The position numbers were made by a program, and so were the translations under genes. The notes under the pieces were generated by a model. The model ran no database searches, was not told the DNA's origin, and saw only the letters and a program-made list of their open reading frames with translations. This document shows, piece by piece, positions 1,457 to 42,529 of a stretch of 64,000 bases of DNA. The stretch's first letter is position 1; each line of letters opens with the position of its first letter. The stretch is from a virus: the IMG/VR virus record IMGVR_UViG_3300024518_000034, positions 128,309-192,308 of that record; one strand, written 5' to 3'.

Positions 1457-3245
1457 AAAGTTAGCGCAGTTTCCCCCTGAGGAAAACTATTTAGATCCAG
1501 ACGCTTATGTTCAACAATTGGAACCTCCGCAGCCAGTTGCACCAACTGACGTTCAGGAAAATATGAATTGCCCACATTGCGGGAGTATTTTCCCAACAAG
1601 TCGCTTAGAAAATGATCACGCGGTATGTGACAATTGCAATTATTATATTGAATTAAAATGTGATGATTGCGATAAAAATCTTCTCTTTGGAGAAGAAAGA
1701 AAAGATCCTTGGGGCAATGAAATATGTGAAGAATGTTTTGAAGGAAGTTATGTAGTATGTGTGAATTGTGAGGAAACGGTAAAAGAGGAGGACGAAAAGA
1801 AAGACGAAGATGGTGACTCGCTTTGCGAGGAATGTTTTTACGATAATTATACATACTGCGAGCCGTGCGGAGATGCTATAAAAATAGATGATGCAGCTTT
1901 TGTAGACGAAGATAGGTGGATGTGTAAAGAGTGTGCTAAAGATTTTTACTGTGATGAATGTATGGGATATAAAACAAACACGCAGGATCGTCAAATAGGT
2001 GAGGAAAATAAAAAACTATGTGATGAGTGTTTTATGTCGATGTGGGAAAATGGTGAAATAGCAACTTGTGACCAATGTCATGCTGTAGTTACAGGAGACA
2101 ACATTCACTATACAGAGGATGGATCTGAGTGTAATGAATGCTATGGAGGCAATGATAACATTAAAAGTTATTATGAATTAAAAGAGGCGGCAGAGGGGAA
2201 TCTTGAAACCCAAAGCGATTTGGAATATTACAAAGATATGTATCCTAACTTATTTAGTGTGTCGGAAGATTATAATAGGAAGAAAAAAAAGTCTTGGAAT
2301 TATATTCAAAAGTGGTCAGGCGGATTTGACTATGTTCCAGAAATGGATGTTGGAGTAACTAGACCATCTACTGATTATGAGGGAACATACATTGAGTTTG
2401 ATTTGTCAGTTAATGAAGGAGAAAGATTGGCAGAAAAAATAGGAATGGACGAAAGTCAAATGTGGGATGTGTTTAAAAGATGCAACGATTATCACCCATG
2501 TTTAGTAAGTTCAGACGCAGACAGAATGATAGTGTCCAGAGTTTTGGTGGATGATAACGGAGACTGGAATGTTAAACTAATGCAAGGTTCTATAAATCAA
2601 GAAGCAAAAGCAGAAATGTCAAGAATTGAGGATGAAATAAGAGGGGAAGAGCGCAAGTGTAGGGACTGCGGCGGTGGCGGGAAAAGTTATTCTTGGCGAG
2701 GAGGGCCGTGTAAAGCTTGTAATGGAAAAGGCGTCGTTAAGATTATTAATGAAGAACAATTGGAGGGGTGGGATAAAACGAGGGGAGAAGAGGAAGCGGA
2801 AAAGCTTTACCCAAAAGAATATGGAGGAGAAGATCCATTAAAAGGACTTGAAGAGAGGGGAAAAGACTATTATCTTAAACAGGACTTACAACAGAAAATG
2901 GAACAATTAGATAAAATTGTAAAACTAACAAATGGTGCATATATAGCAGCATATGATTGGATAAAGAACCTGGCTAAACAAAAAGGAAAAAAATGTTATG
3001 TAGAAGTGCCAGAAGGCCAAGCGCGTCAACATCCAAATGCACCTAAAATAAGTCTTGAAGTTATATATGGTGGAATACCATTTTTGATGGGATTTGAAAA
3101 AGAGAAAATTAAGAGGGAGTTAGAAGGTGAGGGAGAGAAAGGTGTGGAACAAAAAGGAAAATCAAGATATAGGATGGCTAAGGCAAACAATTGGGATTTT
3201 GAAGATATTGCAGATATGGCAATATTTGACCCTCTACTTAGATAG
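1380..3245 (+). CDS. large protein with many CxxC zinc-finger repeats and a DnaJ-like CxxCxGxG pair
   Basis: More than 12 CxxC motifs in aa 60-255, then CRDCGGGG...CKACNGKG. Confidence 0.75.
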   Translation: MRIRMGPDQRYLEVSEKTTDFHPLLKKLAQFPPEENYLDPDAYVQQLEPPQPVAPTDVQENMNCPHCGSIFPTSRLENDHAVCDNCNYYIELKCDDCDKNLLFGEERKDPWGNEICEECFEGSYVVCVNCEETVKEEDEKKDEDGDSLCEECFYDNYTYCEPCGDAIKIDDAAFVDEDRWMCKECAKDFYCDECMGYKTNTQDRQIGEENKKLCDECFMSMWENGEIATCDQCHAVVTGDNIHYTEDGSECNECYGGNDNIKSYYELKEAAEGNLETQSDLEYYKDMYPNLFSVSEDYNRKKKKSWNYIQKWSGGFDYVPEMDVGVTRPSTDYEGTYIEFDLSVNEGERLAEKIGMDESQMWDVFKRCNDYHPCLVSSDADRMIVSRVLVDDNGDWNVKLMQGSINQEAKAEMSRIEDEIRGEERKCRDCGGGGKSYSWRGGPCKACNGKGVVKIINEEQLEGWDKTRGEEEAEKLYPKEYGGEDPLKGLEERGKDYYLKQDLQQKMEQLDKIVKLTNGAYIAAYDWIKNLAKQKGKKCYVEVPEGQARQHPNAPKISLEVIYGGIPFLMGFEKEKIKRELEGEGEKGVEQKGKSRYRMAKANNWDFEDIADMAIFDPLLR

Positions 3246-3253
3246 GAAACAAT

Positions 3254-3448
3254 ATGAGAATAAGAATGGGACCAGACCAAAGACATTCGTTAGATAGAGC
3301 AACAGAGGCTTTAAGAAAAGCTTTTAATATTGACAGTGAGAGTGATACACCAGCTAGAAATGATGAAGGATTTTTAAGATATTTAGAGGTATCTGAAAAG
3401 ACTACTGATTTTCATCCACTATTAAACGAAGAAAAAAATGAAGAATAA
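3254..3448 (+). CDS. small protein sharing the leader of ORF 1380..3245 (possible remnant)
   Basis: MRIRMGPDQR + 32 aa + YLEVSEKTTDFHPLL, upstream AGGAAAC. Confidence 0.5.
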   Translation: MRIRMGPDQRHSLDRATEALRKAFNIDSESDTPARNDEGFLRYLEVSEKTTDFHPLLNEEKNEE

Positions 3449-4199: not shown

Positions 4200-4789
4200 A
4201 GTTTCCAGTAAAAGTGCCATTTAAATATGATCAGCATGGAGAGGTAAAATGCATTGTTGACTATATTAGACAGAACAATATAACTGTGCCAACAATGTAT
4301 GTAGATGTTGGGGCATCAGACGGAGTATGTAATAGTAACTCAAGATATTTTGTCCATCAGGGATGGAGGACGTGGCTTATCGAACCATGCCCTGTAAACT
4401 TTAAACTTTTGAAAACAAATACAAATTTCATGGGTAGTGCAGTTGCGGTGAATTATGCAGTTGGAAATGAAAATGGAAAAGTAAAATTTAAATCAGAAGG
4501 TGGGCTATCTAAGGTTACTCATAGTGGAAATATTGAAGTGCCAATGATAATGGTAAAAGAATTGGTTGAAAAAATTAAGACAAAAGATATAGGAATTTTA
4601 GACGTGGACACAGAGGGTGGAGAAGAAGGAATACTTTTACAGTTTATGAAGTTGAAAATATATCCTCATTTTATTATTGTAGAACACCAATGTCATGAAC
4701 CAAAAATAAAAGAACAAGAAAGAATATTATCGCCAAGATATAAGAGAATAGCCAGAAAAGGCGTTAATGACATATGGCACTTAAAATAA
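4196..4789 (+). CDS. FkbM-family SAM-dependent methyltransferase
   Basis: YVDVGASDG, LIEP, NYAVG, ILDVDTEGGE. Confidence 0.85.
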   Translation: MKFPVKVPFKYDQHGEVKCIVDYIRQNNITVPTMYVDVGASDGVCNSNSRYFVHQGWRTWLIEPCPVNFKLLKTNTNFMGSAVAVNYAVGNENGKVKFKSEGGLSKVTHSGNIEVPMIMVKELVEKIKTKDIGILDVDTEGGEEGILLQFMKLKIYPHFIIVEHQCHEPKIKEQERILSPRYKRIARKGVNDIWHLK

Positions 4790-5412
4790 TAGTTACGGGA
4801 CAACCGAGAACTGGTACAAGTTTTCTTACAAGTTTAGTGGCTAAGATGAGCGGGTATTCTCTGGGACCAAAGGGTGGATTGAAAAAACAAGATAGACACA
4901 ATCCTAACGGGTATTTTGAATCTGTAGATATAATGCAAATAGAGGATGCGTTGTTGCAAAAATTGGGAGGATCGTACCAAAAGATACCAGACAAAAAGAG
5001 TAATTGGCATAAGGAGTGTGATGGAATAAAGGCAATACTAAGGGGTACGATAAATAGAGATAAGATAGAAATAATTAAGTCTCCTAGAGGAATTATGATA
5101 GGTGACATATATTATGATATGTATCCTAAAGCTGTATGGTTCTATACAAAAAGAGAACCAGAGGTAACGTACAAGAGTAGGTGGGGCAAAAGGATTTCTT
5201 TGAAAAAATGGAAGAAAATTTGTGCAGAGAGAGAGATAGTTTGGAGAAAGTCAAAAGTAAGTAGAAGAGTTTGGAATGTAAACTATGAAAACTTTGAAAC
5301 AAATTTTAAAGGTGAGTGGTTAAGAATAATACGGGCGTTTAGGTCAGAGGGGATAAAGATAAATTGTTCATTTGAAGAATGTGAAGCGTTATGGAAACCA
5401 AGAAGAAAATAA
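4774..5412 (+). CDS. sulfotransferase family protein
   Basis: IIVTGQPRTGTSFL (5'-PSB loop), NPNGYFE, IKSPR, VNYENF. Confidence 0.8.
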   Translation: MALKIIVTGQPRTGTSFLTSLVAKMSGYSLGPKGGLKKQDRHNPNGYFESVDIMQIEDALLQKLGGSYQKIPDKKSNWHKECDGIKAILRGTINRDKIEIIKSPRGIMIGDIYYDMYPKAVWFYTKREPEVTYKSRWGKRISLKKWKKICAEREIVWRKSKVSRRVWNVNYENFETNFKGEWLRIIRAFRSEGIKINCSFEECEALWKPRRK

Positions 5413-37422: not shown

Positions 37423-37569
37423 GAAAGTAGTTGCATTCTGAGAATGAAGTTGGTAGAATAAGTAGAAGTAAATGGGAGTAGCAGTCAACGGTGTGGGGCA
37501 CCGTAGCAGTATGACTACTACATCAGTATTGGAGACGATAAAGGTGGGGCCAATATTGAAATTAAGTAT

Positions 37570-37640
37570 GCGCGGTTGACCGAGTGGCTAGATGATTGGT
37601 TGCAACCCTTTTTACCCCAGTTCGAATCTGGGACCGTGCT
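37570..37640 (+). tRNA. tRNA-Cys(GCA), weak anticodon stem
   Basis: Acceptor GCGCGGT/ACCGTGC, U73, loop TTGCAAC, T arm CCCAG-TTCGAAT-CTGGG. Confidence 0.75.
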
Positions 37641-37648
37641 TTATAAAA

Positions 37649-37710
37649 GCTAGATGCTGATGGAGTTACTGTCAAATGAGAAAAGAAAACTTCATTAACT
37701 ATATGCTAGC
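37649..37710 (+). ncRNA. short Y-RNA-like hairpin, twin 1
   Basis: GCTAG/CTAGC terminal stem, bulged helix, 8-bp upper stem. Homologous to 42228-42291. Confidence 0.6.
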
Positions 37711-37722
37711 ATTGAAATAAAT

Positions 37723-37847
37723 CCCGAATGTGGAATGGAGTTACAATTCTCTACGAAAGAAAAGATGTCGGTTCGATTCCGGCTCTCTCCGTTGGAGAGA
37801 TGGTGTAATGGTAACATAAAAAATACACTTCTTCCGTTTATGTTGGG
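37723..37847 (+). ncRNA. YrlA-type Y RNA (circularly permuted tRNA-like module on a long terminal stem)
   Basis: Order is T arm (37767-83), acceptor-like stem closed by GTT (37784-800), D arm (37803-17), with paired 5'/3' ends. Ro60 gene lies 1.2 kb downstream. Confidence 0.75.
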
Positions 37848-37932: not shown

Positions 37933-38316
37933 GGGACTGAAATAGGATCGACAGGATTCAAGACAATATTAGTGGCACGTAGTAGTTGGTGGAATGGCTA
38001 CTTTAAAAATCTACTAAAAAAAGTTTTAATTGACAACAACAATGTCATTTCTCTGAGTGATCGTCGCAAGGGTCGTAAGACTCGTGCGTTCGCTCGCCTA
38101 GCTGCTTAATTAACAGCCAGAGCCTGAAGCACGGACTCCGATACGTGTGGACGGTCGTATCGGATTGTTTGAATTTCTTATTTTATAAAACTTAAAACTT
38201 AAAAATAAGTGGTGGAGGCAAATGGTTGCTTGTTACCTAATTTAACAAGACAAACGTGTAGAAGCTATATTTGATGGATTACTGGACGCGGGATGCGATG
38301 CCCGCCAGTTCCACCA
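37933..38316 (+). ncRNA. ssrA: tmRNA
   Basis: GGGACTG/CAGTTCC-ACCA with G3-U70, 5' ...GGATCGAC, T arm GCGGG/CCCGC, internal tag ORF ending LAA*. Confidence 0.93.
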
Positions 38317-38322
38317 AACAAA

Positions 38323-38392
38323 CGGTGTTCAGGTGATATGCGGCAGAGATTACATCAAGCTGCTGACGCTGGTTCAAAACCAGCAACACCGG
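38323..38392 (+). ncRNA. tRNA-like RNA lacking a D arm
   Basis: CGGTGTT/AACACCG, GCTGG-TTCAAAA-CCAGC, CGGCAG/CTGCTG with 13-nt loop. Confidence 0.55.
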
Positions 38393-38514
38393 TTACGTTC
38401 GATGGAATGGTCATTAATGAACAAAATGGGAACCTACCATAACCCATCGACTGAAATAAAGTAGTTGCAATTGAGGTTTCATCTTGGTATTATAGATGAA
38501 GAGTAAAAGTGAAA

Positions 38515-38671
38515 GCGAGGGTGTCGGAAGACACAAGTGGACTTAACATAAAAAAGCGTTCTTTTTATAATCTGCTCATTTATTTGAGTTACATTTTAAA
38601 AAGACTTTGAAAATATTTGTAAGGTTCGAAAGAGGACTACTGCTTGGCAGGTGAAAGCCCTGTCCCTCGCC
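38515..38671 (+). ncRNA. tRNA-like/Y-like RNA upstream of groES
   Basis: Own promoter (38465-93), GCGAGGG/CCCTCGC terminal stem, T-arm-like GCAGG-TGAAAGC-CCTGT. Confidence 0.5.
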
Positions 38672-39004: not shown

Positions 39005-39046
39005 CCAAGTCGGCAGTAGGGCCGAATGAAGAAAGGGAGAATTATC

Positions 39047-40594
39047 ATGAATACAATCACAAAGAACGCGGCAGGCGGTGTAGCAATTCGTAAGAGCAAG
39101 GAAAACGCTCTAGCAACAATGGTGTGTACTGGCACTCAGAACGGAGCGTTCTATGCCGACGCAAGCAAGATCACTGATGTAATGAAAGCTCTAGCTCATC
39201 AGGTAAGTCCTGAAGCTCTTGCAAAGATTTTGGTCTACGGACGCAAGAAGGGGCACATGAAAGATCTGCCTGCTCTTGGTCTGGCAATTCTTGCAACCAA
39301 GGACAGCAAGCTATTTCGTAAGGTCGCACCTCACATTCTAGACAACAGCAAGATGTTGCGTAACTTCGTTAAGTATATGCGAGATGGATCAGTGGGACGT
39401 AAGTCTCTCGGTCACGCTGCAAAGAAGGCTGTACAGAGATGGTTTGATGCAAAGGATGCTAAGGGATTGTTCTATAATTCGATTGGTAACGATCCGTCAC
39501 TGGCAGACGTAATTCGTTTGGCGCATCCAAAGCCAAAAACTAAGGAAGCTGAAAATATGTTTGCTTACATTCTTGGAAGAGAATATAAGACTAACTTGCT
39601 TCCTGACAACGTGCAGGATTATGAAAGATACAAACAGTCTGATCGTCCAGGTGGACGAGCAGTTCCGAATGTTCCGTTTCAGATGTTGGACAGTCTAGGA
39701 TTGGACAAGGCTGGATGGATTCAGATTGCAGAAAGAGCAAGCTGGCAACAAACTAGAATGCTTTTGAACACTTTTGTTAGACATGGAGTATTTGAGAGTC
39801 ATGCAGGTATGGGTAAGATAATTGCAGATAGGTTGCGTAATCGTGATCTGATCGCTAAATCTAGAGTGTTTCCATATCAGTTGTTGGTAGCATTCAAGAA
39901 CGCAGAGGGTGTTCCACAAGAAGTATTGTTGGCATTGCAGGACGCTTTGGATATTGCATGTGAGAACATTCCAGAGATCGATGGAAAGGTGTACGTATTT
40001 CCTGACGTTTCAGGCTCAATGAGAAGTCCAGTGACTGGATATCGTTACGGTGGACAGAGAAGTTCGACTGTACGTTGTGTTGACGTGGCAGCATTGTTTG
40101 CAGCAGCGCTTTTGAAAAAGAACCCTGAAGCAATCGTTAGACCGTTTGATACTAAGGTGCATCGTCCTACGTTGAATCCTAGAGACAGCGTGATGACTCT
40201 TGCAGATAAGTTGGCTAGGTATGGTGGCGGTGGAACTAATTGCTCTCTTGCTATGCAGGAGTTAAATGGGGAAGTTACTAGAGATACTTCGGCAGTAATA
40301 TATATTTCAGACAGTGAGTCTTGGGCTGATATTGAAGGACGAAACAGATATTGGTATGGTGAATCTTCAACTGGTCTGATGGATGGCTGGAACGAGTTTA
40401 AGTCACGTAACCAAGAAGCTAAGTTGGTATGTATGGATATGCAGCCGTACACTACATCGCAGGCTGACGAGCATCGTAGAGATATTTTGCTAGTCGGTGG
40501 GTTCAGCGACAGAGTATTTGATGTTGTTGCTGACTACGTGAAGTATGGTGAACGTAACTGGATGGATATCATCAACCAAGAAGTTAATCTTTAA
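39047..40594 (+). CDS. rsr: Ro60/Rsr TROVE-domain RNA-binding protein with C-terminal vWA domain
   Basis: KDLPAL, MLRNFV, GRKSLG, NDPSLADVIRLAHPKP, VFPYQL, PDVSGSM, GGGTNCS, ISDSESW, GFSD. Start at ATG 39047. Confidence 0.93.
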   Translation: MNTITKNAAGGVAIRKSKENALATMVCTGTQNGAFYADASKITDVMKALAHQVSPEALAKILVYGRKKGHMKDLPALGLAILATKDSKLFRKVAPHILDNSKMLRNFVKYMRDGSVGRKSLGHAAKKAVQRWFDAKDAKGLFYNSIGNDPSLADVIRLAHPKPKTKEAENMFAYILGREYKTNLLPDNVQDYERYKQSDRPGGRAVPNVPFQMLDSLGLDKAGWIQIAERASWQQTRMLLNTFVRHGVFESHAGMGKIIADRLRNRDLIAKSRVFPYQLLVAFKNAEGVPQEVLLALQDALDIACENIPEIDGKVYVFPDVSGSMRSPVTGYRYGGQRSSTVRCVDVAALFAAALLKKNPEAIVRPFDTKVHRPTLNPRDSVMTLADKLARYGGGGTNCSLAMQELNGEVTRDTSAVIYISDSESWADIEGRNRYWYGESSTGLMDGWNEFKSRNQEAKLVCMDMQPYTTSQADEHRRDILLVGGFSDRVFDVVADYVKYGERNWMDIINQEVNL

Positions 40595-40892: not shown

Positions 40893-40964
40893 GGGGCGGT
40901 CAGTGGGCCTGGGTTGGACACTTGCAATGTCTGAAACGGAGTTCGATTCTCCGTCGCTCCACCA
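40893..40964 (+). tRNA. tRNA-Ala(TGC)
   Basis: G3-U70, loop CTTGCAA, encoded ACCA, short D arm. Confidence 0.85.
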
Positions 40965-40978
40965 TAAAGGGGGAGTAA

Positions 40979-41476
40979 ATGATTGTAGAACTAACTAAAG
41001 AACAAGTGTCGGGATGTAGGGCCTTGGCCACACTAAGACAGAACGACAATGTAAAAAAAGGCAAGAAAGATGCAGACGGTTTTAGAGGAGATCCTTTAAG
41101 ATTGCATTTTATAGGACTGCTGGGCGAGTGCGCAGCGCACACTGTGCTTGGTGGAGACTGGAACGATTTTACTGATAGTGAAATTGAGAGAAAGAAAGGC
41201 GATGTAGGGAAATACGAAGTAAGAACTACAGAATATTCAAGTGGTGGTTTATTGATTAAACCTAGAGACGTAGACGATAGGATTTATGTTTGCGTAAGAA
41301 GAGTGAATAAAAAAGAGTATAAGTTTGAAATTGCTGGATGGATGAAAGGGAAAGAAGCAAAGCAAGAGAGATTTTGGAAAGCTTATGTTAGAAAACCATG
41401 CTACATTGTGCCAGCATATAAACTAAACGACATAGAACTTTTAAAGCAAAAAGTTAAAGGGCAAATAAATGATTGA
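40979..41476 (+). CDS. hypothetical protein (possible PD-(D/E)XK-like fold)
   Basis: GLLGECAA, GDVGKYEVRTT motif. Confidence 0.55.
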   Translation: MIVELTKEQVSGCRALATLRQNDNVKKGKKDADGFRGDPLRLHFIGLLGECAAHTVLGGDWNDFTDSEIERKKGDVGKYEVRTTEYSSGGLLIKPRDVDDRIYVCVRRVNKKEYKFEIAGWMKGKEAKQERFWKAYVRKPCYIVPAYKLNDIELLKQKVKGQIND

Positions 41477-42212
41477 AGAAAGTTTAGATAAGATTGATGA
41501 ACAACTCAACGATCTGAAGGGTAAGAAAGAGCCAAATATTCTAGTAGACCTTATTGTAGACAGATCGTCTTCAATGTATCATCAAACCAAAGATGTGATT
41601 AAGGGGATTAACGAATATCTGGACGGACTAAGACAAGATAAGGAAAACAGAATATTGGTCAGCTTGACACTATTTGATGATCAGATCGAGACACCATATG
41701 TTTTGACACCAATCGCTGAAGTTCCTGTGTTAGACGATAGTGTTTATTTTCCCAGAGGATGTACAGCGTTGAACGACGCTGTAGGTATCACATTGAATAG
41801 ATTAGAAAGACACATTAGAGAGTACAAGGAAGAGCCAAAGGTTTTAGTAGTTATTCTCACAGACGGCCTGAATAACGTTACTAGAGAGTTCAAGGCAGGC
41901 GAAATACAGAAAAAGATCAGCGATTTGGATAGGGAAAAAGATAATTATACTATTGTATATTTAGGTTCACATGCAGATGCTTGGGCAGTTGGACAGTCGT
42001 TAGGTATTAGTGGCGGAAGTTCAATGTCCTTCGATCAGAATAACCTAGTAGGGACAATGAGAGGCATGTCAACAGCTACTTCGAATTATGCAAGAAGTAG
42101 GGAAAAGTCAGCACAAAGCTTTTACATGTGTGCTTCAGACACCTTCGAAAAAGAAGGTGTGACTGTGGCAGATGATGTAAAAGGAAAGCTTGACAAGATA
42201 GAAAATAAGTAG
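41469..42212 (+). CDS. von Willebrand factor A domain protein
   Basis: MIDAS DRSSSM, GCTALNDAVG, ILTDGLNN. Confidence 0.85.
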   Translation: MIEESLDKIDEQLNDLKGKKEPNILVDLIVDRSSSMYHQTKDVIKGINEYLDGLRQDKENRILVSLTLFDDQIETPYVLTPIAEVPVLDDSVYFPRGCTALNDAVGITLNRLERHIREYKEEPKVLVVILTDGLNNVTREFKAGEIQKKISDLDREKDNYTIVYLGSHADAWAVGQSLGISGGSSMSFDQNNLVGTMRGMSTATSNYARSREKSAQSFYMCASDTFEKEGVTVADDVKGKLDKIENK

Positions 42213-42227
42213 TAAGATACAAACAAC

Positions 42228-42291
42228 GCTAGATGCAAGTAGGAGCTACAATCCTTTAAATTGAATCCGCTTCTACAAACTATATGCTAGC
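42228..42291 (+). ncRNA. short Y-RNA-like hairpin, twin 2
   Basis: Same 5' GCTAGATGC and 3' ACTATATGCTAGC as 37649-37710. Confidence 0.6.
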
Positions 42292-42296
42292 ACTAA

Positions 42297-42367
42297 AGCC
42301 GGATGGTGTAATGGTAGCGCACGGGTCTTTGAAGCCTAGAGCGGAAGTTCGATTCTTCCTCCGGTTG
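42297..42367 (+). tRNA. tRNA-Gln(TTG)
   Basis: AGCCGGA/TCCGGTT, loop CTTTGAA, T loop TTCGATT. Confidence 0.8.
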
Positions 42368-42374
42368 TTATATT

Positions 42375-42445
42375 AGCCTAGTGATGTAATGGTAGCATAA
42401 GTGTTTCTGAGACATTTTGTGAGGGTTCGAATCCTTCCTAGGCTG
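42375..42445 (+). tRNA. tRNA-Gln(CTG)
   Basis: AGCCTAG/CTAGGCT, loop TTCTGAG, T loop TTCGAAT. Confidence 0.85.
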
Positions 42446-42529
42446 TTAGTCCTAGGCGTCATAAGGATGAAAATATATATTAATAAAGGATCGTTGAACG
42501 CGGTCCTTTTTTTATTGAAAGGTAATAAA

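What the first reader, a model, noticed from the sequence alone, without database searches (positions are those of the whole stretch)
37649..37710. Twin 62-64 nt RNAs (37649-37710 and 42228-42291) on either side of rsr: a possible minimal Y RNA family
Seen: both begin GCTAGATGC and end ACTATATGCTAGC, both have GGAG(T/C)TAC opposite CTTC, and their upper stems differ in sequence yet stay paired (TGATGGAG/CTTCATTA versus GTAGGAG/CTTCTAC). Loops are unrelated. Both can form a terminal stem, a bulged G, then AUG/UAU pairs, and the same bulged element occurs in the YrlA-type RNA. Each sits directly next to a tRNA gene. Established: Ro60 recognises a bulged helix near the paired ends of Y RNAs. Inference: these are minimal Ro60 ligands released by tRNA processing.
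Basis: partly seen in the sequence, partly recalled or inferred. Interest (0 to 1): 0.76.

Follow-up and report, generated by a model that had tools for sequence, protein, structure and literature searches.

The report
Phage mini Y RNAs beside Ro60
Two 62-64-base hairpin RNA genes flanking a phage Ro60 gene are divergent members of a widespread, little-annotated class of small Y RNA-like hairpins, so they are probably real Ro60 partner RNAs rather than a new kind of system.

Summary
The two elements sit at 37649-37710 and 42228-42291, with identical 9-nt 5' and 13-nt 3' ends. They are the only two copies in the 192-kb virus record. They flank a full-length Ro60/rsr gene (39026-40594) and abut tRNA-Cys and tRNA-Gln.

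Their conserved letters (AUGC after stem 1, YUAC after stem 2, U-G before the 3' strand of stem 1) match the Ro60-binding lower stem of the Rfam YrlA consensus. The tRNA-like domain is replaced by a 22-nt apical region.

The same 55-80-nt architecture recurs beside Ro60 genes in 76 viral and 80 bacterial loci, almost always on the rsr strand. All 14 stem pairs covary. A covariance model built only from those outside sequences ranks the twins first and second in the window (E about 0.001 and 0.007).

A relative whose Ro60 is 91% identical keeps the element with a compensatory paired deletion, and has a further copy with a different terminal stem.

The twins lack the canonical CGAA motif (UAGA instead), and binding is untested.

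Precedents exist: YrlB, Yrn2 and Thermus phage phiLo Yrl2. I file the twins as a new member of a known kind. This scan has already noted similar mini Y RNAs on other phage DNA.

The parts
37649..37710 (+). Twin 1: 62-nt Y RNA-like hairpin. It has a 5-bp stem 1, an AUGC internal loop, a 9-bp stem 2, UAC and an A-rich apical region, then an 8-nt 3' loop ending UG.
   Evidence: model R1 gives 21.9 bits, E 0.001, a full-length match
42228..42291 (+). Twin 2: 64-nt Y RNA-like hairpin with the same ends as twin 1, an 8-bp stem 2 of different sequence, and a 22-nt apical region.
   Evidence: model R1 gives 19.0 bits, E 0.007; the ortholog L008:3165-3226 is 81.5% identical with a paired A/U deletion in stem 2
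37570..37640 (+). tRNA-Cys(GCA), with no encoded CCA. Its 3' end lies 8 nt before twin 1.
42297..42446 (+). Two tRNA-Gln genes (UUG, then CUG). The first starts 5 nt after twin 2.
42190..42218 (+). Sigma-70-like promoter (TTGACA, 17 nt, TAAGAT). The predicted start site falls a few bases before twin 2, so twin 2 would be the 5' leader of the tRNA-Gln transcript.
   Evidence: 10 of 12 matches; consensus match only
42485..42509 (+). Terminator-like hairpin with a T run that would close the twin 2 / tRNA-Gln unit.
37431..37459 (+). Candidate promoter (TTGCAT, 17 nt, TAGAAT) preceded by GTAG. The same motif recurs at 38461-38493. It would drive the hairpin / tRNA-Cys / twin 1 / YrlA-like / tmRNA block.
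   Evidence: direct reading; the motif GTAGTTGCAW is exact only at 37427 and 38461; below the threshold of the scan
37723..37847 (+). YrlA-type Y RNA. Its lower stem carries CCCGAAUG and encloses a permuted tRNA-like domain (T arm, closed acceptor hairpin, D arm).
   Evidence: (partial tRNA match at 37730-37783); not detected by RF02553 or by R1
39026..40594 (+). rsr: full-length Ro60 (TROVE plus vWA domains), the presumed protein partner.
   Evidence: Pfam; about 52% identity to bacterial Ro60; MIDAS and other invariant columns kept; related to solved Ro60 structures 9KOP, 2NVO, 1YVP

Best explanation
The twins are small Y RNA-like genes that consist of little more than the Ro60-binding module of bacterial YrlA RNAs. 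That module is a terminal stem, a conserved asymmetric internal loop (5' AUGC facing a 3' strand that ends in U and an unpaired G), a second stem, and a UAC(A) turn. A short A-rich or variable apical region takes the place of the tRNA-like effector domain.

They are transcribed on the + strand inside tRNA operons. Twin 1 follows tRNA-Cys. Twin 2 is the leader of the tRNA-Gln pair. They are probably freed by the enzymes that mature the flanking tRNAs: RNase P at the tRNA-Gln 5' end, and RNase Z or exonucleases at the tRNA-Cys 3' end.

The mature hairpins most likely bind the phage Ro60 encoded between them. Because they lack an effector domain, they would act as gates or competitors: they would occupy Ro60 or stabilise it without tethering it to a nuclease, alongside the YrlA-type RNA next door.

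Shown here: sequence, structure, covariation, family membership and genomic linkage. Inferred: transcription, processing, Ro60 binding and the gating role.
For: - The Rfam YrlA consensus printed reads stem / AUGCu / stem ending Ggaa / CUAc ... stem / cUuG / stem. The twins have AUGC, GGAG, YUAC and U-G in the same places.
- A motif-and-pairing scan of 156 independent Ro60 loci found such modules 152:2 (+:-) in bacterial loci and 77:5 in viral loci. Lengths were bimodal, at 55-70 nt and 120-140 nt.
- In the alignment of 63 short members (A2, none from this phage clade), all 14 pairs show double changes. The covariation score is 0.70, against 0.23 for shuffles (0 of 500 reach it) and 0.07-0.15 for slid controls.
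- Model R1, built from A2 and run with filters off on the whole window, puts the twins first and second. Both are full-length matches. The next hits are partial, at 13.7 bits or less.
- R1 also picks out both elements of the relative L008 as the only hits there.
- In 78 viral loci, all 94 R1 hits lie on the rsr strand.
- Between the window and L008, tRNA-Gln is 100% identical and the element 81.5% identical. Stem 2 loses one A and one U as a pair, and the apical region changes freely.
- L008:3322-3403 keeps the loop motifs with a different, still paired, terminal stem.
- Another phage (L065:3504-3565) has the same 5' nonamer as the twins and the same closing strand at its 3' end, and scores 51 bits.
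- Nine of the 63 members share the G-C closing pair.
- Precedents: Rsr-bound YrlB and Yrn2, with Yrn2 co-transcribed with a tRNA (PMC4201824); phage phiLo Ro60 binds a roughly 60-nt hairpin, Yrl2, with nanomolar affinity (PMC12135203).
Against: - The motif considered critical for Rsr recognition (GNCGAAN0-1G, or CGAA) is not present. The twins read GCUAGAUG.
- Ro60 is reported to contact mainly the 5' strand (10.1101/312249).
- R1 scores are modest (19-22 bits). The E-values are rough, and the pipeline did not report the twins.
- Rfam gives no Y RNA or YrlA hit even at E up to 10.
- Fold z-scores are weak.
- The scan that supplied A2 was designed after seeing the twins, so the invariance of AUG, UAC and UG in A2 is partly by construction.
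- There is no expression, end-mapping or binding data.
- Only one diverged relative of this phage clade (two near-identical contigs) could be read.
Confidence: 0.68

Rival explanations
1. The elements are structured leader or spacer hairpins of tRNA operons. They would guide or buffer precursor processing or transcript stability and have no dealings with Ro60. Their likeness to the Y RNA stem would then reflect common descent from tRNA-operon spacers only.
For: Both elements abut tRNA genes. Twin 2 begins at a predicted transcription start. The canonical CGAA motif is missing. CM scores are modest.
Against: The same module is found on the rsr strand at rsr loci, and most copies (about 85% of the short ones) have no tRNA within 15 nt. 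The conserved loop nucleotides coincide with those of the Rsr-binding module of YrlA. The window has four other tRNA genes (36842, 42374, 51375, 52325) with no such hairpin beside them.
Confidence: 0.15
2. They are Y RNA-like decoys aimed at a different partner. The partner could be the host's own Ro60 or PNPase, or another protein of the island such as the vWA protein at 41469-42212. The AG-AUG subclass would mark that changed specificity.
For: The swap of the two pairs next to the loop (GA/UC to AG/CU) recurs in 9 of 63 members, mostly in phages. The same phage also has a canonical CGAAUG RNA (37723-37847). phiLo Yrl RNAs also bind host PNPase (PMC12135203).
Against: Nothing ties the subclass to a different protein. 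Loci with the subclass still encode an ordinary Ro60.
Confidence: 0.1
3. They are DNA-level direct repeats that mark the ends of a mobile or swappable rsr cassette.
For: Identical 9-nt and 13-nt ends lie 4.5 kb apart and bracket the YrlA-like RNA, tmRNA, groES, rsr and two ORFs.
Against: The interiors differ yet stay paired with G-U pairs on one strand only. The relative L008 holds one copy between two tRNAs, plus a copy with other ends. Unrelated loci carry single copies or tandem arrays on the rsr strand.
Confidence: 0.04

Closest known systems
YrlA (Rfam RF02553), the bacterial and phage Y RNA-like tRNA mimic (Chen et al. 2014, PMC4201824; Wang et al. 2018, 10.1101/312249)
   Same: Encoded within 2 kb of rsr on the same strand. 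The ends pair into stem 1, then comes an internal loop with AUGC on the 5' side and U-G on the 3' side, then stem 2 followed by YUAC (one search compared).
   Different: No T arm, D arm or closed acceptor stem; a 22-nt apical region takes their place. CGA of the GNCGAA motif is replaced by UAG, with a compensating 3' strand. No RF02553 hit at any threshold tried.
Hairpin-type Y RNAs: Salmonella and M. smegmatis YrlB, and Deinococcus Yrn2 (PMC4201824)
   Same: A second, smaller Y RNA next to the tRNA-like one. It has a hairpin shape and is encoded beside rsr. Yrn2 is made in one precursor with a tRNA and Yrn1.
   Different: Those RNAs were shown to be bound by, or dependent on, Rsr, and they carry the GNCGAA-type motif. 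The paper describes small pyrimidine-rich loops, whereas the loop of twin 1 is A-rich. I could not compare sequences directly because none was held.
Yrl1 and Yrl2 of Thermus phage phiLo (PMC12135203, NAR 2025)
   Same: Phage-encoded hairpin RNAs of about 60 nt near a phage Ro60 gene, with a stem / bulge / stem layout.
   Different: The phiLo RNAs contain CGAA. Single changes in that motif weaken binding 3-4 fold. They lie upstream of the gene and are not reported as tRNA-flanked. The phiLo record was not available for a model search.
Metazoan Y RNAs (RF00019)
   Same: The ends pair into a stem with a single unpaired nucleotide close to the Ro60 contact site, and there is a variable loop.
   Different: The metazoan bulge is a C on the 5' strand within GGUCCGA/UUGACU. 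Here the unpaired base is a G on the 3' strand. No Rfam match.

Membership tests
Y RNA-like RNAs of bacterial and phage rsr loci (Ro60-binding module) | Encoded within about 4 kb of an rsr/Ro60 gene, on the same strand | tested here: met
   Twin 1 ends 1.3 kb upstream of rsr and twin 2 starts 1.6 kb downstream. All are on the + strand.
Y RNA-like RNAs of bacterial and phage rsr loci (Ro60-binding module) | The 5' and 3' ends pair into a stem that is interrupted by a conserved internal loop and followed by a second stem | tested here: met
   Every pair of both stems is standard in twin 1, twin 2 and the two L008 elements. The family stems covary at 14 of 14 pairs.
Y RNA-like RNAs of bacterial and phage rsr loci (Ro60-binding module) | The conserved nucleotides of the YrlA lower stem (AUGC, CUAC, cUuG) | tested here: met
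   One search gives the consensus; searches give the twins. AUGC is present in both. UUAC or CUAC is present. The 3' loop ends UAUG rather than CUUG.
Y RNA-like RNAs of bacterial and phage rsr loci (Ro60-binding module) | GNCGAAN0-1G / CGAA motif on the 5' strand | tested here: not met
   The twins read GCUAGAUG. The neighbouring YrlA-type RNA reads CCCGAAUG. The variant closing pair recurs in 9 of 63 family members.
Y RNA-like RNAs of bacterial and phage rsr loci (Ro60-binding module) | Significant match to a covariance model built from independent members | tested here: met
   R1 gives 21.9 and 19.0 bits, E 0.001 and 0.007, the top two hits of 128 kb searched. This is weaker than typical members, which score 27-62 bits. 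The pipeline did not report them.
Y RNA-like RNAs of bacterial and phage rsr loci (Ro60-binding module) | Bound by Ro60/Rsr | not testable with these tools
   Needs EMSA or co-purification.
YrlA proper (RF02553) | tRNA-like effector domain (T arm, closed acceptor stem, D arm) and a score above 69 bits | tested here: not met
   No such domain fits in 62-64 nt. No RF02553 hit.
Metazoan-type Y RNA (RF00019) | GGUCCGA/UUGACU helix with a bulged C on the 5' strand | tested here: not met
   Absent from the sequence. No Rfam hit.

The most novel reading that the evidence does not exclude
Effector-less mini Y RNAs of 55-80 nt are a distinct, widespread and unannotated class, roughly as common as YrlA at Ro60 loci of large phages and soil bacteria. 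The AG-AUG variant carried by the twins would be a functional subclass. It would be produced together with tRNAs through RNase P/Z processing, so that Ro60 gating is coupled to the output of phage tRNA operons, perhaps as part of a phage RNA-repair or anti-tRNase island.
Probability: 0.3. Interest if true: 0.55.

Novelty: new member of a known kind. Interest (0 to 1): 0.36.

Why it matters
The finding adds a clean, compact example of a phage that carries Ro60 together with one tRNA-like Y RNA and two effector-less Y RNA hairpins wired into tRNA operons.

It also shows that the short hairpin class is common. In the motif scan, 55-70-nt modules were about as frequent as the 120-140-nt YrlA class in viral loci. 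In bacterial loci they were roughly half as frequent. The class has strong covariation support, yet no Rfam family reaches its threshold on it.

The natural UAG-for-CGA variant offers a ready-made test of how strictly Ro60 reads the 5' strand of its ligands. None of this changes the current picture of Ro60 biology.

Tried and rejected
- **Exact-end pattern in IMG/VR.** It gave three hits. None has the stem 2 motif, and L003:48-101 lies inside an open reading frame. I treat them as chance.
- **Single-protein scan of IMG/VR with the phage Ro60, and blastn of the island against isolate phages.** Neither found close relatives; only tRNA-Met matched.
- **The contig of the 59%-identical Ro60 (P0003).** Its DNA could not be fetched.
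- **Rfam at the gathering threshold and at E up to 10.** Nothing was found for the twins or for the YrlA-like RNA.
- **The RF02553 hit elsewhere in the record, G000:C1:27400-27497.** It overlaps tandem tRNAs. This is the false-positive type that Chen et al. warn about.
- **R1 through the genome search on the own record.** It returned nothing, unlike the unfiltered cmsearch.
- **Myxococcus phage Mx1, the nearest isolate Ro60 at 44% identity.** No R1 hit within 4 kb.
- **Co-transfer of tRNA-Cys plus Y RNA from bacteria.** Rejected, because the phage tRNA-Cys is at most 65% identical to those in the bacterial loci.
- **Terminator reading.** Rejected, because no T run follows either twin.
- **MAFFT alignment A3 of the clade.** It put L008b out of register, so its pairs were checked by explicit strands instead.
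- **Two reviews (PMC10870794, PMC6047535).** Not held.

Full report
**Context**

The window is the last 64 kb of a 192,308-bp IMG/VR virus record. Between 36.8 and 42.5 kb it carries, all on the + strand:
- tRNA-Met and tRNA-Cys;
- a tmRNA (37933-38316);
- groES;
- a full-length Ro60/rsr gene (39026-40594; TROVE plus Ro60-type vWA domains);
- a small ORF;
- a tRNA-like element (40893-40964);
- two ORFs, one of them a vWA protein;
- two tRNA-Gln genes.

The Ro60 is about 52% identical to Ro60 of Acidobacteriota and Planctomycetota. It keeps the invariant columns of the family and is related to the solved Ro60 structures.

**The observation**

The gapped pattern occurs twice in the whole record and never on the other strand.

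Each element folds as follows:
- a 5-bp terminal stem;
- an internal loop;
- a second stem of 8-9 bp whose sequence differs between the copies but whose pairs are all standard, including G-U pairs that exist only in the + strand RNA;
- a 22-nt apical region of unrelated sequence.

Thermodynamic z-scores are unimpressive (-1.9 and -1.5), so the case rests on comparison, not on energy.

**Relatives of this phage**

Exact look-ups of Ro60 homologues gave one identical phage (L006) and one relative whose Ro60 is 91% identical (L008/L009).

L008 has an ortholog of twin 2 at 3165-3226. It lies 9 nt after a tRNA-Ala and 5 nt before the same tRNA-Gln. The tRNA-Gln is 100% identical, the rsr DNA 86.6%, and the element 81.5%. 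Stem 2 has lost one A and one U as a pair, and the apical region is heavily substituted.

L008 also has a further element at 3322-3403, between its two tRNA-Gln genes. It keeps AUG, GAGUUAC and the 3' loop motif, but its terminal stem is different and still paired. The window has only a 6-nt spacer at that place. These are the marks of selection on RNA structure.

**Link to Y RNAs**

An Rfam search of bacterial rsr loci printed the YrlA consensus. It reads: terminal stem, AUGCu, second stem ending Ggaa, CUAc, the tRNA-like domain, the return strands, and a 3' loop ending cUuG.

The twins carry AUGC, GGAG, UUAC or CUAC, and a 3' loop ending UG at the equivalent places. So they look like the Rsr-binding module of YrlA with the tRNA-like domain removed.

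The same bacterial loci contain hairpins of 62-67 nt with exactly this layout (for example L012:4796-4858 and L014:4656-4717).

**How general the class is**

I fetched 76 viral and 80 bacterial Ro60 loci and scanned them for the module.
- The scan found 152 hits on the rsr strand against 2 on the other strand in bacteria, and 77 against 5 in viruses.
- Lengths are bimodal, at 55-70 nt and 120-140 nt.
- In an alignment of 63 distinct short members, none from this phage clade, all 14 stem pairs show changes on both sides.
- The covariation score is 0.70, against 0.23 for shuffles (0 of 500 reach it) and at most 0.15 for slid controls.

Caveat: the scan required ATG, YTAC and TG, so the invariance of those letters in the alignment is partly built in. 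The Rfam consensus is the independent witness for them.

**Membership test**

A covariance model was built from that alignment (R1) and run without filters over both strands of the window.
- It ranks twin 1 first (21.9 bits, E about 0.001) and twin 2 second (19.0 bits, E about 0.007). Both are full-length matches.
- Everything else is a partial match of at most 13.7 bits.
- In L008 the only hits are the two elements described above.
- Typical members score 27-62 bits, and all 94 hits in 78 viral loci are on the rsr strand.

So the twins are real but divergent members. A differently filtered run did not report them.

**Where the twins depart from the family**
- The published recognition motif GNCGAAN0-1G (PMC4201824), or CGAA (PMC12135203), is not met. 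The twins read GCUAGAUG. The two pairs next to the loop are swapped from GA/UC to AG/CU. The closing-pair swap (A-U to G-C) occurs in 9 of the 63 family members. Another phage (L065) has the same 5' nonamer and closing strand and scores 51 bits.
- In the family, the AUG triplet faces YUU: A-U in 63 of 63, a U-U mismatch in 63 of 63, and G-C or G-U in 59 of 63, next to an unpaired G. In this phage clade the facing strand reads UAU and carries extra bases.
- The unpaired G on the 3' strand is present in every member, although the scan itself required it. The Rfam consensus, which also conserves this G, is the independent witness.

**tRNA context**

Twin 2 starts a few bases after a TTGACA-17-TAAGAT promoter-like site. 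A terminator-like hairpin follows the second tRNA-Gln. Twin 2 would therefore be the 5' leader that RNase P removes.

Twin 1 follows a tRNA-Cys that lacks an encoded CCA. It lies downstream of a candidate promoter whose GTAGTTGCAW motif is exact only twice in the window, both times in this RNA island.

Direct adjacency to tRNAs is not universal. About 15% of short members have a tRNA within 15 nt. It does recur independently, including hairpins squeezed between two tRNAs with gaps of 1-5 nt (L060, L069).

The literature reports Y RNAs beside tRNA genes, and a Yrn2 / tRNA-Asp / Yrn1 precursor in Deinococcus (PMC4201824; 10.1101/312249).

**Comparison with what is known**

Hairpin Y RNAs accompany the tRNA-like Y RNA in Salmonella, M. 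smegmatis and Deinococcus (PMC4201824). BLAST with YrlB found it only in Salmonella serovars.

A 2025 study showed that the Ro60 of Thermus phage phiLo binds two phage-encoded hairpins. One is about 60 nt and binds with nanomolar affinity. Single changes in its CGAA motif cost only 3-4 fold (PMC12135203).

The twins are therefore a new member of a known kind. The family-wide picture obtained here is a useful by-product rather than a new system. That picture is a short class, in viral loci about as common as YrlA, that no Rfam family detects at its threshold.

Earlier notes of this scan describe similar mini Y RNAs beside phage Ro60 genes on other DNA. They agree with the present result but were not used as evidence.

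**Verdict**

Binding, processing and function remain inferences. Interest is moderate to low.

Noticed in passing
window 40893-40964 (+): A tRNA-Ala(UGC)-like gene with G3:U70, a good T arm and an encoded CCA, but an aberrant D region. ARAGORN missed it, and it was hit only by the tmRNA model ends (23 bits). In the relative L008 (3081-3155) the same position holds a regular tRNA-Ala.
   Followed up: partly
L008:3322-3403: A third Y-like element between the two tRNA-Gln genes of the relative. It is absent from the window, which has a 6-nt spacer there. Its apical region contains a small hairpin that includes the canonical GCGAAUGC string.
   Followed up: partly
window 38323-38414 (+): The tRNA-like RNA just after tmRNA has, in its anticodon-arm position, AUGC followed by a stem and then AGAUUACAUC. 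That is the 5' half of the Y RNA module. An earlier scan note on other DNA describes tRNA-shaped RNAs with a Ro-binding module in that position.
   Followed up: no
window 38575-38620 (+): GAGUUAC followed by CUUU recurs inside the roughly 160-nt RNA upstream of groES. Four of the eight + strand GAGYTAC sites in the window fall in the 37.6-42.3 kb island.
   Followed up: no
L021:8554-9038; L018:5946-6909: Other large phages carry tandem arrays of mini Y hairpins downstream of Ro60: four copies at a 142-nt period in L021, and six to seven units in L018.
   Followed up: no
L012:150-2920 and 4676-4860: A bacterial rsr-rtcB locus preceded by about a dozen tRNA genes interleaved with at least six Y-like RNAs. 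Two more Y-like RNAs lie between rsr and rtcB. Some of these RNAs were called as small ORFs in the source annotation.
   Followed up: partly
window 37427-37459 and 38461-38493 (+): Two copies of a promoter-like motif (GTAGTTGCAW, 17 nt, then a -10 box preceded by TG) that is exact only in the RNA island.
   Followed up: partly
G000:C1:27400-27497 (outside the window): A weak full-length RF02553 match (22.6 bits) that overlaps two adjacent tRNA genes. It is probably the tandem-tRNA false positive described by Chen et al. 2014.
   Followed up: partly
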